From Escherichia coli (lineage in GTDB: Bacteria > Pseudomonadota > Gammaproteobacteria > Enterobacterales > Enterobacteriaceae): a DNA stretch of 64,000 nt. Location: assembly GCF_046105845.1 (NCBI RefSeq), contig NZ_CP151004.1, one strand, 5' to 3'. Within the stretch, counting starts at the first letter, position 1. Every line of letters starts with the position of its first letter. The notes beneath the pieces are model-generated. The model did no database searches and was not told where the DNA came from. It saw nothing but the letters and a program-made list of their open reading frames with translations. Positions 1-56,979 of the stretch are shown here, piece after piece. A program made the position numbers and the translations under genes.

Positions 1-1226
<1,226 letters not shown>

Positions 1227-1409
1227 TCACAACCCGAAGATGTTTCTTTCGATTCATCATCGTGTTGCGAAAATTTGAGAGACTCACGAACAACTTTCGT
1301 TGTTCAGTGTTTCAATTTTCAGCTTGATCCAGATTTTTAAAGAGCAAAACTTCGCAGTGAACCTTTGCAGGTACACTCTGAAGTATTTTTTATTTAATCA
1401 CTACAGAGA

Positions 1410-1485
1410 TGGTGGAGCTATGCGGGATCGAACCGCAGACCTCCTGCGTGCAAAGCAGGCGCTCTCCCAGCTGAGCTATAGCCCC
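1410..1485 (-). tRNA. alaT: tRNA-Ala (anticodon UGC), 16S-23S spacer tRNA
   Basis: Reverse complement reads GGGGCTATAGCTCAGCTGGGAGAGCGCCTGCTTTGCACGCAGGAGGTCTGCGGTTCGATCCCGCATAGCTCCACCA, 76 nt with CCA end. Confidence 0.95.
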
Positions 1486-1527
1486 ATAACATGTAGTTAA
1501 AACCTCTTCAAATTTGCGGTGCAAATT

Positions 1528-1604
<77 letters not shown>

Positions 1605-1672
1605 GTAGAGGTTTTACTGCTCATTTTCATCAGACAATCTGTGTGAGCACTGCAAAGTACGCTTCTTTAAGG

Positions 1673-3214
<1,542 letters not shown>

Positions 3215-16688: not shown

Positions 16689-18931
<2,243 letters not shown>

Positions 18932-44865: not shown

Positions 44866-45053
44866 TATGGATTGCCTGTAAAGTTCATCGCTTTCTGCTT
44901 TCTATCATCGCAGGAGAAGGCGTAAAAGCAAGCGTTTAGCGACTCTTTATGAAGTCTGAAAAATGAGGAAATACTGCGAGTATAACGCTTACACGTGGCG
45001 ATTTATGTTTTGCTGGTAGTTTCGTGATCGTCACCTCGCGCCAGGATGGCTTT

Positions 45054-45287
45054 ATGCACTATCGCAATGTGATTTCTTTGTTGGCTTGTTCGTTGTTTTT
45101 ATCGTCGGCATGGGGATGTCGGCTTGATGAGCCTGAACATAATATTTACCAGAAACAGGGAAAAGGCGTGGTGTATTTGCACCCTTATGAAAAGACCAAT
45201 CTTTCGCTATATAGAGACATTATTATTCCGTTGACAGATGAATCATGCCGGAACGCAGCCGCAGAGGTGCAAACTTTGAAGCCCTGA
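45054..45287 (+). CDS. hypothetical small exported/lipoprotein-like protein (possibly the reference yzcX)
   Basis: 77-codon ORF with AGGA ribosome-binding site about 8 nt upstream of ATG; N-terminus MHYRNVISLLACSLFLSSAWGC resembles a signal/lipoprotein peptide. Real-gene status unverified. Confidence 0.35.
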   Translation: MHYRNVISLLACSLFLSSAWGCRLDEPEHNIYQKQGKGVVYLHPYEKTNLSLYRDIIIPLTDESCRNAAAEVQTLKP

Positions 45288-45694: not shown

Positions 45695-48241
45695 TCACGA
45701 AAAATACTGCTGTAATAGCGGCGTATCGTGATCCTGATTGGCAGGCGGCATGTTGCCAATCGATTTGGTGCGGAACGGAATCACCTGTTCACGACCATCA
45801 ACCTTCACAATCTGATAGAACTGCGGCAGGTTGAAGTTGATGAAGCTTGAGCCGTAGGTAAAACGGTCGTGCGATGACGAGTAGAAGCGACTGACGTCAC
45901 GCACCAGCTCCTCTTTGCTGCCTTCGCAGTGGTGATACACCTCAACCCGGTTGCTTTCGTCGAGAATGTAGATATTAAAGCCATTCTCGTCTTGCGTTTC
46001 TTCGAAGAAGAACTGGATGATCCCTTCGCTGGCAAAGCCGTCCACCACCGCCGGTAATTTGACGTGATTGGTTTCAACCTGCACTGACAGGCCGTGCAGT
46101 TTGTTATGCGAAATAGCGCCATAAAACTCGATGGCATTTTCTAGTTTCTGTACCGATACATTCAGGCGCTCGAAGAATAAGCCCCAGGTTTGACCAGAAA
46201 CGCGCAGCGCCTTGAAGCGCCCGGTTTCATGGCGGGTGCTGGAAAGACGCAGTTCAATGCACTCAGAAACCAGTTGCTGCACGCGAGTACGGATTAATCC
46301 GCGCAGATGCTGGCTGTAGCAGAAGACTTCCACGCTATCTGGCGGTGCGGCGTCCTGATGCATTTTACCGAGAATGGTTTTCAGGGCTTCGATCATCGAC
46401 TGCTCGCCGTTGAAGTGCAACGTACGCACTTCGTTCCACGAGTTGCGGTACAGCAGGTCCACGCTACCTACCAGGCAATTTTGATTCTCGCCAAAGCTGA
46501 AGACGTCCAGCTTACGGAAATCAAAATGCACCACCTGATTGCGGAACGCAGCTGTCGGGTCATATTCCAGGTTAACGATAATCGCCAGATGGCGAATTTC
46601 ACACGGGCTGTAGAGCGCTTTTGGCGTCGGTGCAGGCAGGCGCAGCGGGAAATGGTGTGACACATCGGCGACCATCTCCTGCAACTTAGGCAAATCGACA
46701 ATGCCGTTGCCTTTAATATACAAGCGGGTACGCGAGGTCAGCAGGCCGTTAAACCATGCCCACGCCACCAGTTTATTCAGGTAACGGTTATATTCCAGCG
46801 GCTGATGGCTGATGATCGACTCAATATTTGGCGCGCGGTTATACAGATACCAACCTGAACGGTTAGCCCGGCCCGGCGGCACATAAATAAAGGTCAGATT
46901 CGGTTCCGAGAGATCGGGTGAAATCTGCGGGTTTACCAGCGTCACTTTACCCGGCAATGCTTCAAACGCGGCATACAGCTTACGCGTCAGCACGCCGATA
47001 TCCTGCGGACTGGCGGAGACGCTAAGGTTATTGCGGCGCGCAAAGCGAATCAGATTACGGTAGCTCTGCATCATCGCGTCGAGCAACTCGTTGTGCGCCT
47101 CACGTACCTGATCAATCTTCCAGTTAGCGCGGTTATCGAGCATTGCCAGACGAGCATCGTCCCATTCCCACTCTTTCACTAACTGGGTTAGCACTTCACG
47201 ACGCCAGCCTACGCAGGCGCGTTCACGGCTGAGTTTTTCGCACACTTTTAAATAGAAGCAGCGGCGTACTAAATCCAGACGGGTGAAATCTTCAATCGCC
47301 GTCAGGTATTCAGTAACACGCTCCAGCATCATGCAGTAAGGATCGAGGCCAAACGACACAATCTCGCCGTCGTGCAAACGCTGTTTGATATCTTTCGCCA
47401 GCAGACGTGGGTTCGGGTATTCCCAGGAATAGGCTTCCAGCAGCAGTGTTTTCAGCACCGCTTTGTATGGGGAATCGATACTCTTGTAGAGCTGCCAAAG
47501 GCTGGCACCAAAGTACTCTTCAGCAGAAAGCGAGCTTAAGCCACCGAGATCCAGCCATTCATTTGGCGTCAGCACGCCCTGCGCGTAAAGCGTCATCACA
47601 TAGTCGTCGTAATGCTCTTCTTCGTCGCACGGCACCATATTCCACAGAATACGCTTACCAGCGAGACGCACGGCGGTACGGTAAAATTCGTCAAGCAGCA
47701 GTATATGCTGGGTGGAGCCACAATCTTCGCCCCCCAGGCTGCCGCTTTCATTATGACGGAAGCGGTTTTCATCAATCAGGAAGAAGCTAACTTCCACGCC
47801 CAGCGAGGCGGCCCAGCTTTCCAGCAGGCTGCATTTACGTTGTAGTAACTGGCGCTCTTCGCTATCAAGCCAGGATTGATGACAGACCCAGATATCCAGG
47901 TCAGAGGAACAACTTTGCCCTACGGACGAGGTGCTGCCCATGGTGTATACACCAGTAATTGGAAGCTCACCTTTCGGCGGATCCTGTACTGACATTCCAC
48001 GATACAGTTCAAGCTCGTTCAGGTAGTGGCGTTGAGTTTCATCAGGCGTGTAAAGGCAAATGCCTTTGGGAACGTTACCATCAAGGTAACCCGGCATTAG
48101 CGGATGGTGATAGTGCAACAATGTCGGCAGTAGACTGTAGACCTGTTGGAATGCAGGCCCCATAGCAGCAAGCGCGCGATCCACACGCAATTGATTTATG
48201 GCATCCAGTCTCTGTTTCAGAGTCTCAATATAGAGGTACAA
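45695..48241 (-). CDS. cyaA: adenylate cyclase (class I)
   Basis: 848-aa ORF recognised as CyaA; initiation codon at 48239-48241 is TTG on the coding strand, as known for E. coli cyaA. Confidence 0.94.
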
Positions 48242-48627
48242 GACGTATCGCCTGATTTGCTACCCGTCATGACTGTGATTCCGCCAACATCAACGGTAAC
48301 ACGCGGCATTCGGGATATTTCGTATGTCAAAGGTAACCGTTACCACTTTTCGCGCCTGGTTTTTTTAGTTTCACGACGAAAAAATGGTCTAAAACGTGAT
48401 CAATTTAACACCTTGCTGATTGACCGTAAAGAAAGATGCGCTACATACAAGTGTAGCACCGTTTATTCTCTGTAAATTCCTTATTACGACGGCGTGAAAC
48501 GCCTGTCAGGATCCACTGCCAGACCTCATTTTACGGTTTGCGCAGGCGTCTACGTTTCACCACAACACTGACATCGCTCTGGCAAGGATGTTAGGATGGA
48601 CCACGGATGATAATGACGGTAACAAGC

Positions 48628-49569
48628 ATGTTAGACAATGTTTTAAGAATTGCCACACGCCAAAGCCCACTTGCACTCTGGCAGGCACACTATGTCAAAG
48701 ACAAGTTGATGGCGAGCCATCCGGGCCTGGTCATTGAACTGGTACCGATGGTGACGCGCGGCGATGTGATTCTTGATACGCCGCTGGCGAAAGTAGGCGG
48801 AAAAGGCTTATTTGTAAAAGAGCTGGAAGTCGCGCTCCTCGAAAATCGCGCCGATATCGCCGTACATTCAATGAAAGATGTGCCGGTTGAATTCCCGCAA
48901 GGTCTGGGGCTGGTCACTATTTGCGAGCGTGAAGATCCTCGCGATGCCTTTGTGTCCAATAACTATGACAGTCTGGATGCGTTACCGGCAGGCAGTATCG
49001 TCGGGACGTCCAGTTTACGTCGCCAGTGCCAACTGGCTGAACGCCGCCCGGATCTGATTATCCGCTCCCTGCGCGGCAACGTCGGCACTCGCCTGAGCAA
49101 ACTGGATAACGGCGAATACGATGCCATCATTCTTGCCGTAGCCGGACTAAAACGTTTAGGTCTGGAGTCACGCATTCGCGCCGCGTTGCCACCCGAGATT
49201 TCTCTTCCGGCGGTAGGACAAGGTGCGGTGGGCATTGAATGCCGCCTTGATGATACACGCACTCGCGAGCTGCTTGCCGCGCTGAATCACCACGAAACTG
49301 CACTGCGCGTTACCGCAGAACGCGCCATGAATACCCGTCTCGAAGGCGGATGTCAGGTGCCAATTGGTAGCTACGCCGAGCTTATTGATGGCGAAATCTG
49401 GCTGCGTGCGCTGGTCGGCGCGCCGGACGGTTCGCAGATTATTCGCGGTGAACGCCGCGGTGCGCCGCAAGATGCCGAACAAATGGGGATTTCGCTGGCA
49501 GAAGAGCTACTGAATAACGGCGCGCGCGAGATCCTTGCTGAAGTCTATAACGGAGACGCCCCGGCATGA
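48628..49569 (+). CDS. hemC: porphobilinogen deaminase (hydroxymethylbilane synthase)
   Basis: Translation [35 protein letters not shown]... (313 aa) recognised; start at internal Met of track ORF. Confidence 0.93.
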
Positions 49570-52773: not shown

Positions 52774-52980
52774 AAAAAAACGCCTGCTCTTATTACGGAG
52801 CAGGCGTTAAAACAGGTCTGTATGACAACAAGTGGGTGCTTCACTCAACGTTGTGTCCATGGTGTCTGATGAGGCATAAGCGACATCTGTCAGTGGACGA
52901 TAAGCACCGTAAACGGCTCTGCGTCATTCCGGAGTTTATGAGGCACTAAGGCGAACATAAGAGATGGAATGAGCATCTAC
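52774..52980 (-). ncRNA. glmZ: GlmZ small regulatory RNA (SraJ/RyiA), activator of glmS translation
   Basis: Minus-strand sequence from GTAGATGCTCATTCCATCTCTTATGTTCGCC... to the terminator hairpin AACGCCTGCTCCGTAATAAGAGCAGGCGTTTTTTT matches GlmZ as I recall it; lies in the hemY-aslA intergenic region where glmZ is known to map. Confidence 0.85.
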
Positions 52981-56542: not shown

Positions 56543-56619
56543 TGGTCGGCGAGAGAGGATTCGAACCTCCGACCCACTGGTCCCAAACCAGTTGCGCTAC
56601 CAAGCTGCGCTACTCGCCG
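56543..56619 (-). tRNA. proM: tRNA-Pro (anticodon UGG)
   Basis: Reverse complement CGGCGAGTAGCGCAGCTTGGTAGCGCAACTGGTTTGGGACCAGTGGGTCGGAGGTTCGAATCCTCTCTCGCCGACCA. Confidence 0.93.
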
Positions 56620-56661
56620 AAATACTGCTTTTTGAATTTTTAGTTCAATTCTTTAAAGTCG

Positions 56662-56748
56662 TGGTGCGAGGGGGGGGACTTGAACCCCCACGTCCGTAAG
56701 GACACTAACACCTGAAGCTAGCGCGTCTACCAATTCCGCCACCTTCGC
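56662..56748 (-). tRNA. leuT: tRNA-Leu (anticodon CAG)
   Basis: Reverse complement GCGAAGGTGGCGGAATTGGTAGACGCGCTAGCTTCAGGTGTTAGTGTCCTTACGGACGTGGGGGTTCAAGTCCCCCCCCTCGCACCA, 87 nt class II tRNA. Confidence 0.93.
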
Positions 56749-56768
56749 ATTGTCACAACTTCTAATAA

Positions 56769-56845
56769 TGGGGTGGCTAATGGGATTCGAACCCACGACA
56801 ACTGGAATCACAATCCAGGGCTCTACCAACTGAGCTATAGCCACC
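56769..56845 (-). tRNA. hisR: tRNA-His (anticodon GUG)
   Basis: Reverse complement GGTGGCTATAGCTCAGTTGGTAGAGCCCTGGATTGTGATTCCAGTTGTCGTGGGTTCGAATCCCATTAGCCACCCCA, includes the extra 5' G typical of tRNA-His. Confidence 0.93.
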
Positions 56846-56902
56846 ACTACAAATCTTGTTACGCGGTATTACTACCACCGCAGCTCAAGCGCCGGGACTA
56901 AA

Positions 56903-56979
<77 letters not shown>

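What the first reader, a model, noticed from the sequence alone, without database searches (positions are those of the whole stretch)
48239..48241. cyaA initiates at a TTG codon
The long cyaA frame begins with TTG on the coding strand (CAA on the + strand at 48239-48241), giving the recognised N-terminus [17 protein letters not shown]. This weak start codon is a known translational control feature of adenylate cyclase.
Basis: partly seen in the sequence, partly recalled or inferred. Interest (0 to 1): 0.12.

Follow-up and report, generated by a model that had tools for sequence, protein, structure and literature searches.

The report
cyaA's well-known TTG start codon
The adenylate cyclase gene cyaA in this E. 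coli window does begin with the weak start codon TTG, a textbook feature shown in 1985 to limit how much enzyme is made, so the finding is correct but ordinary.

Summary
Confirmed and already known. The 848-codon cyaA frame (window 45695-48241, minus strand) begins with TTG at 48241-48239. An in-frame TAG lies 7 codons upstream, with no ATG, GTG or TTG between them. The next in-frame GTG is codon 20 and the next ATG is codon 27. RefSeq annotates the same start. The window is base-for-base identical to E. coli K-12 MG1655 from -246 to +247 around the start. The published K-12 result therefore applies directly: UUG:GUG:AUG gives adenylate cyclase at 1:2:6 (Reddy et al. 1985, as cited in PMC5499595). 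An SD-like AGGCGA lies 9 nt upstream but pairs weakly with the anti-SD (-2.9 kcal/mol). The TTG is invariant in 79/79 Enterobacteriaceae species loci. The 81 nt around it match at 99% or better in 5417/5425 complete E. coli genomes. Six of 10 distant homologues (46-64% identity) also have a called TTG start. About -15 to +20 is nearly invariant, including synonymous sites, while the rest of the leader diverges. Side observation: an out-of-frame 17-codon ATG uORF overlaps the start. Its frame is not conserved and I found no record of its translation. Interest is low.

The parts
48239..48241 (-). TTG initiation codon of cyaA
   Evidence: Sequence read. ORF list. RefSeq start in E. coli C and MG1655. 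Invariant in 79/79 Enterobacteriaceae loci.
45695..48241 (-). cyaA coding sequence, 848 codons plus stop (class I adenylate cyclase)
   Evidence: Pfam PF12633 and PF01295. Annotated as cyaA in 5425 E. coli genomes.
48248..48253 (-). Shine-Dalgarno-like AGGCGA. The AGG core is 9 nt from the TTG. Predicted pairing is weak.
   Evidence: Sequence. Duplex with anti-SD ACCUCCUUA is -2.9 kcal/mol. AUCAGGCGAUA is conserved in 79/79 loci. AUCAGG/CAAGG-like motifs lie at similar spacing in distant homologues.
48260..48262 (-). In-frame TAG stop 7 codons upstream of the TTG, which closes the frame
48221..48256 (-). Nearly invariant translation-initiation region (about -15 to +20), including synonymous third positions of codons 1-6
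   Evidence: Column conservation over 73 distinct sequences from 79 species. Upstream of about -18 conservation falls to 30-40%.
48161..48163 (-). First in-frame ATG (codon 27), the rejected alternative start
   Evidence: SD duplex -3.1 kcal/mol. Residues 1-26 are identical in 79 species. The Pfam N-domain match begins at residue 5.
48217..48270 (-). Out-of-frame 17-codon ATG ORF ([17 protein letters not shown]) that overlaps the cyaA SD and TTG. It is a candidate uORF and its translation is unproven.
   Evidence: SD-like GGCGGA, -4.8 kcal/mol. The same ATG is in frame with cyaA in Citrobacter and Salmonella because of a 1-nt indel, and it is absent in most other genera. It is not annotated in MG1655 and not found in the held small-ORF supplement.
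48395..48410 (-). CRP-site-like TGTTAAATTGATCACG, about 155-170 nt upstream of the TTG. It probably marks the main (P2) promoter/operator and so the 5' end of the leader.
   Evidence: Sequence. Present with at most 2 substitutions in 77/77 loci, at a variable distance of 108-179 nt from the TTG. Its identification with the P2/CRP operator rests on my recollection of Aiba 1985 and was not verified here.

Best explanation
This is the native start of E. coli cyaA. Ribosomes initiate at UUG, which mispairs at its first position with the CAU anticodon of initiator tRNA. The codon is preceded by a weak Shine-Dalgarno element (AGGCGA, 9 nt spacing). Together these make a deliberately inefficient initiation region that keeps adenylate cyclase scarce. 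Shown: the position of the start, the absence of any alternative that keeps the conserved N-terminus, the weak predicted SD pairing, and strong purifying selection on the codon and on about 35 nt around it. Taken from the literature: replacing UUG with GUG or AUG raises synthesis 2- and 6-fold, and cyaA transcripts undergo Rho-dependent termination inside the coding sequence. Inferred: infrequent initiation leaves the early cyaA mRNA poorly covered by ribosomes, so the weak start also lowers full-length mRNA through Rho. Selection keeps UUG because excess cyclase/cAMP is harmful.
For: Start and frame. Upstream in-frame stop with no other start. Same start in RefSeq for E. coli C and MG1655. 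Window identical to MG1655 from -246 to +247. TTG in 79/79 Enterobacteriaceae loci. TTG is the only possible canonical start in 40/79. The 81 nt around the start match at 99% or better in 5417/5425 complete E. coli genomes. Called starts in 10 distant homologues are TTG 6, GTG 2, ATG 2. All 5 whose N-terminus aligns position-for-position use a non-ATG codon (4 TTG, 1 GTG). Weak SD. TIR conservation including synonymous sites. Published 1:2:6 ratio and phylogenetic conservation of UUG in cyaA: PMC5499595. Rho-dependent termination within the cyaA ORF, linked by the authors to regulated translation initiation: PMC7815308.
Against: Nothing contradicts the start assignment. Three caveats apply. 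I could not read the primary papers, so the 1:2:6 figure is second-hand. No proteomic N-terminus for CyaA was found in the held N-terminomics supplement. The link between weak initiation and Rho termination is an inference, not tested for cyaA specifically. Starts in the 10 distant homologues are gene-caller calls, not experimental.
Confidence: 0.95

Rival explanations
1. The weak codon is only part of the story. The invariant -15..+20 block and the overlapping out-of-frame AUG form a second layer of translational control. In E. coli this AUG is the 17-codon uORF from 48270. In about half of the other genera it is an AUG at -5. Ribosomes starting at either AUG would read across and occlude the cyaA SD and UUG, then stop at UGA 48219-48217. 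Alternatively, a trans-acting RNA or protein binds the invariant block.
For: The uORF ATG has an SD-like element that pairs better than cyaA's own (-4.8 vs -2.9 kcal/mol). 38 of 78 species loci have ATG at -5 in the same +1 frame, and it ends at the same TGA. Synonymous sites of codons 1-6 are invariant, and conservation stops abruptly upstream of -18.
Against: The E. coli uORF ATG is in frame with cyaA in Citrobacter and Salmonella and is absent from Enterobacter, Klebsiella and Kosakonia, so no uORF is conserved as such. The -5 position alternates C/T, ACG in 38 loci and ATG in 38, which looks like a tolerated polymorphism. The TGA follows from the Leu-Lys coding sequence. No uORF is annotated in MG1655 or listed in the held Ribo-seq small-ORF supplement. 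The leader shows no fold signal (z -0.65). A 35-nt invariant stretch is about the size of a ribosome footprint on an initiation region, so it needs no extra factor.
Confidence: 0.15
2. The true start is a downstream in-frame codon (GTG codon 20 at 48184 or ATG codon 27 at 48163), and the TTG-proximal codons are untranslated leader.
For: ATG is the commoner start codon. The SD scores of these sites are no worse than that of the TTG for codon 27 (-3.1).
Against: Residues 1-17 are identical in all 79 species while the nucleotides just upstream of -18 diverge. The Pfam N-terminal domain aligns from residue 5. Distant homologues align from residue 1-2. Codon 20 is not GTG in 25 of 79 loci, and GTG 48184 has no SD (+1.6). 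Published mutagenesis of the UUG changes the protein yield.
Confidence: 0.02
3. TTG is a neutral accident with no selective value, simply a start codon that happens to work well enough.
For: TTG is accepted by IF3 as a canonical start and occurs at about 8% of bacterial genes.
Against: It is invariant in 79 species although nearby synonymous sites vary. A single T-to-A change would give ATG, yet it is never seen. TTG or GTG sits at the homologous position in all 5 distant homologues that share the N-terminus. The published 6-fold expression difference makes the change far from neutral.
Confidence: 0.03

Closest known systems
E. coli K-12 cyaA (b3806) UUG initiation codon (Roy, Haziza & Danchin 1983; Reddy, Peterkofsky & McKenney 1985)
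   Same: It is the same locus. The window is identical to MG1655 from -246 to +247 around the start and has the same annotated start.
   Different: Nothing of substance. There are two substitutions further upstream, at -247 and -335.
infC (IF3) AUU start codon
   Same: A conserved non-AUG start that limits expression of a regulatory protein.
   Different: AUU is non-canonical and IF3 discriminates against it, which gives autoregulation. UUG is treated as canonical by IF3, and no factor-specific feedback is known for cyaA (PMC5499595).
Other gammaproteobacterial genes with conserved non-AUG starts (spoT UUG, hupB GUG, tufA/fus GUG) listed in PMC5499595 Table 1
   Same: Phylogenetically conserved weak start on a regulator of the nutritional-stress response.
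   Different: These are different genes, and I did not examine them here.
mdtU uORF / Rho-dependent control of mdtJI (PMC7815308)
   Same: A long 5' leader, Rho-dependent premature termination, and translation initiation as the likely determinant. cyaA was studied in the same paper.
   Different: For cyaA the Rho effect maps inside the ORF, not the leader. No translated uORF has been shown, and the candidate here is not conserved.

Membership tests
Class I adenylate cyclase (CyaA) | Adenyl_cycl_N (PF12633) plus Adenylate_cycl class-I (PF01295) domains | tested here: met
   E 1.2e-82 (residues 5-200) and E 2e-258 (residues 228-825).
Class I adenylate cyclase (CyaA) | Enterobacterial synteny: hemC divergent upstream, cyaY convergent downstream | tested here: met
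   RefSeq annotation of the identical region in E. coli C. hemC and cyaY also neighbour distant homologues.
Genes initiating at UUG (weak-start throttle) | TTG is the first canonical start after the upstream in-frame stop, and no alternative preserves the conserved N-terminus | tested here: met
   The same holds in 40/79 species.
Genes initiating at UUG (weak-start throttle) | Shine-Dalgarno element at functional spacing | tested here: met
   AGGCGA, with the AGG core 9 nt from the TTG, conserved in 79/79 loci. It is weak, -2.9 kcal/mol.
Genes initiating at UUG (weak-start throttle) | Start codon conserved by selection across species | tested here: met
   79/79 Enterobacteriaceae loci. 6 TTG and 2 GTG among 10 distant homologues.
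Genes initiating at UUG (weak-start throttle) | Changing UUG to AUG raises protein output | not testable with these tools
   Literature only: 1:2:6 for UUG:GUG:AUG, cited in PMC5499595. The primary paper is not held.
Genes initiating at UUG (weak-start throttle) | Protein N-terminus determined experimentally | not testable with these tools
   No CyaA entry in the held N-terminomics supplement. No solved structure in the PDB.
uORF-mediated translational control | The upstream ORF is conserved in position and frame among relatives | tested here: not met
   The ATG is out of frame in Escherichia, in frame in Citrobacter and Salmonella, and absent in most other genera.
uORF-mediated translational control | The upstream ORF is translated | not testable with these tools
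   Not annotated in MG1655. Coordinate 3991124 is absent from the held small-ORF supplement.
Structured 5' leader / riboswitch | Stable or conserved secondary structure, or an Rfam match in the leader | tested here: not met
   No Rfam hit in 48242-48606. The MFE z-score of the 210-nt leader plus start is -0.65. Leader length and sequence vary between genera.

The most novel reading that the evidence does not exclude
The near-invariant 35-nt initiation region, including silent sites of codons 1-6, and the out-of-frame AUGs that overlap it reflect an undescribed second control on cyaA translation beyond the weak codon. These AUGs are the 17-codon uORF at 48270 in E. coli and an AUG at -5 in half of the other Enterobacteriaceae. 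The control could be decoy initiation that occludes the UUG, or a trans-acting RNA or protein that binds this block. Either might couple to the Rho-dependent termination reported inside cyaA.
Probability: 0.12. Interest if true: 0.35.

Novelty: already known. Interest (0 to 1): 0.07.

Why it matters
It matters little as a discovery. The UUG start of cyaA has been in the literature since 1983-85 and is in every annotation. Its use here is as a positive control: the first-stage reader located and interpreted a non-ATG start correctly from raw sequence. The comparative data add modest quantitative support for selection on the weak start and its surrounding 35 nt. The start is invariant in 79 species and the region is essentially fixed in about 5400 E. 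coli genomes. The data also flag an untested overlapping out-of-frame AUG.

Tried and rejected
- **Primary papers.** I tried to read Reddy 1985 (PMC390610), Roy 1983 (PMC555187) and Hecht 2017 (PMC5397182). None is held, so the experimental numbers are quoted from PMC5499595.
- **Literature search.** A search for 'cyaA' plus 'UUG start codon' found nothing.
- **Promoter scan.** The sigma-70 consensus scan of 48100-48700 did not pick up the cyaA promoter. My placement of P2 at the CRP-like site rests on sequence inspection and memory.
- **Leader folding.** Folding the 210-nt leader plus start gave no more stability than shuffles (z -0.65). I dropped the idea that the UUG is sequestered in structure.
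- **Rfam.** There is no family match in the leader.
- **PDB.** No solved class I cyclase sequence was found to show an experimental N-terminus.
- **Supplements.** No cyaA uORF coordinate (3991124) was found in the Stringer et al. supplement, and no CyaA N-terminal peptide in the TRAINSPOTTER supplement. Absence from held text files is weak evidence.
- **ATC at 48256.** I considered this in-frame, non-canonical codon as a start. I rejected it because upstream residues are not conserved and ATC is a very poor initiator.
- **CsrA site.** I considered a CsrA site over the SD. The GGA core is absent (the sequence is GGC), so I did not pursue it.

Full report
**Observation.** Read on the minus strand, window bases 48241-48239 are TTG. 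The following codons give [16 protein letters not shown]. The ORF listing reports one long frame, 45695..48241 (minus), 848 aa, start TTG. The in-frame codons upstream are TAG (48262-48260) CAA ATC AGG CGA TAC GTC. The frame is therefore closed 7 codons before the TTG, with no ATG, GTG or TTG in between.

**Identity.** The product matches Pfam Adenyl_cycl_N (residues 5-200, E 1e-82) and class I Adenylate_cycl (residues 228-825, E 2e-258). The 801 bases around the start occur in 5425 of 5426 complete E. coli genomes, annotated as cyaA with hemC divergent upstream. In E. coli C the RefSeq CDS begins at the base that corresponds to window 48241. In MG1655 the CDS is 3991153..3993699. The window is identical to MG1655 from -246 to +247 relative to the TTG. 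The window is an E. coli chromosome segment. It also carries an rrn operon, GlmZ and a tRNA cluster.

**Alternatives.**
- The next in-frame GTG is codon 20 (48184), which has no SD (+1.6 kcal/mol).
- The next in-frame ATG is codon 27 (48163), with an SD duplex of -3.1 kcal/mol. That is no better than the -2.9 kcal/mol upstream of the TTG.
- Either alternative would remove residues that are identical in all 79 species examined and that align from position 1-2 in distant homologues.

**Ribosome-binding site.** AGGCGA (48253-48248) places an AGG core 9 nt from the TTG. Predicted pairing with the anti-SD is weak. The start codon and the SD are thus both sub-optimal.

**Comparative evidence.**
- One scan of species-representative genomes returned 80 Enterobacteriaceae loci with 93-100% protein identity.
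- In all 79 usable loci the homologous codon is TTG, preceded by AUCAGGCGAUAYGUC.
- Over 73 distinct sequences, about -18 to +20 is 90-100% conserved. This includes the third positions of codons 1-6. Conservation further upstream is 30-40%, and later synonymous sites vary normally.
- In 40 of the 79 loci the TTG is the only canonical start between the upstream in-frame stop and the conserved N-terminus.
- Within E. coli, the 81 nt centred on the start match at 99% or better in 5417 of 5425 genomes. The one variant I inspected differs outside the TTG.
- A search of cluster representatives followed by DNA look-up for 10 homologues at 46-64% identity gave called starts of TTG 6, GTG 2 and ATG 2. 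The five whose N-termini align position-for-position with E. coli use TTG (4) or GTG (1). Several carry an AUCAGG- or CAAGG-like motif at similar spacing.
- Background use of UUG is about 8% of bacterial starts (PMC5499595).

**Literature.**
- PMC5499595 reports that mutagenesis of the cyaA UUG gave adenylate cyclase at relative levels 1:2:6 for UUG, GUG and AUG (its reference 28, Reddy et al. 1985).
- The same paper reports that UUG at cyaA is conserved in many Enterobacterales and other gammaproteobacteria. It proposes that UUG mRNAs are relatively insensitive to nutritional stress.
- PMC7815308 shows Rho-dependent premature termination that maps within the cyaA coding sequence. The authors attribute such events to regulated translation initiation.
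- The primary 1983/1985 papers are not held.

**Mechanism.**
- Shown here: where translation must begin, that the initiation signals are weak, and that they are under strong purifying selection.
- From the literature: the codon limits output 6-fold relative to AUG.
- Inferred: sparse initiation also exposes the nascent transcript to Rho, which compounds the reduction. Selection maintains this because excess cyclase is deleterious. The toxicity of cya overexpression is from my own recollection and was not checked here.

**Side observations.**
- An ATG at 48270 opens a 17-codon ORF in the +1 frame. It runs across the cyaA SD and TTG and ends at TGA 48219-48217. Its SD-like element pairs better than cyaA's (-4.8 kcal/mol).
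- In Citrobacter and Salmonella a 1-nt indel puts the same ATG in frame with cyaA, 10 codons upstream. In most other genera the ATG is absent.
- 38 of 78 loci instead have an ATG at -5 in the same +1 frame. E. coli has ACG there.
- The lack of frame conservation argues against a conserved uORF. The uORF is not annotated in MG1655 and was not found in a held Ribo-seq supplement.
- The leader shows no significant fold and no Rfam match.
- A CRP-site-like TGTTAAATTGATCACG (48410-48395) is present in 77/77 loci at 108-179 nt from the TTG. This fits a promoter-operator followed by a leader of variable length, of which only the last 15-18 nt are constrained.

**Verdict.** Interest is low.

Noticed in passing
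window 48217-48270 (minus strand): A 17-codon ATG ORF ([17 protein letters not shown]) in the +1 frame overlaps the cyaA SD and TTG. Its SD-like GGCGGA pairs better (-4.8 kcal/mol) than cyaA's own SD. It is not annotated in MG1655 and not found in a held small-ORF supplement.
   Followed up: partly
L005, L017 and other Citrobacter/Salmonella loci, positions 1471-1503: The same upstream ATG is in frame with cyaA (10 codons upstream, no stop) because of a 1-nt indel (AACATC vs AAATC in E. coli). These genera could in principle make a 10-residue-longer CyaA.
   Followed up: partly
window 48244-48246 (ACG here); loci L021-L081 at -5..-3: 38 of 78 Enterobacteriaceae loci have ATG instead of ACG 5 nt upstream of the TTG. 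It is out of frame and opens a 9-codon ORF (MSCTSILRL*) that ends at the same TGA.
   Followed up: partly
window 48221-48256 (minus strand): Synonymous third positions of cyaA codons 1-6 and 10-14 are invariant or nearly so across 79 species. Later codons vary normally. This points to nucleotide-level constraint on the initiation region.
   Followed up: partly
window 48395-48410 (minus strand): A CRP-site-like TGTTAAATTGATCACG is conserved in 77/77 loci, but its distance from the TTG varies from 108 to 179 nt. It is probably the cAMP-CRP operator at the main cyaA promoter (identification from memory).
   Followed up: partly
window 48304-48331 (minus strand): The leader block TTTGACATACG...TATCCCGAATG is conserved between Escherichia, Salmonella and Citrobacter, and partly in some other genera. 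Its function is not identified.
   Followed up: partly
window 48438-48459: A perfect-looking palindrome (GTGCTACACTTGTATGTAGCGC) in the hemC-cyaA intergenic region scored as terminator-like on both strands.
   Followed up: no
window 48607 vs 48628 (plus strand): The longest hemC ORF starts at ATG 48607 (320 aa), but RefSeq annotates a 313-aa product starting 21 nt downstream. The hemC start assignment is therefore ambiguous from sequence alone.
   Followed up: no
window 45024-45209 (plus strand): In the matching region of E. coli C, RefSeq marks an incomplete 'DKNYY family protein' pseudogene fragment just beyond cyaY.
   Followed up: no
window 1-3214, 18326-18577, 52774-52980, 56546-56979 (all minus strand): Rfam gathering-level hits: part of an rrn operon (16S, two tRNAs, 5' part of 23S, StyR-44), an Erse sRNA element, GlmZ, and a cluster of four tRNAs.
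   Followed up: no
E. coli genome collection: One of 5426 complete E. coli genomes lacks the hemC-cyaA intergenic region. One genome carries an extra copy on a plasmid.
   Followed up: no
L088 positions 261-300: In a distant homologue (47% identity, hemC neighbour) the motif ATTGATCACGTTTT, like the E. coli CRP-like half-site, lies only about 30-40 nt upstream of its TTG start. That suggests a much shorter leader.
   Followed up: no
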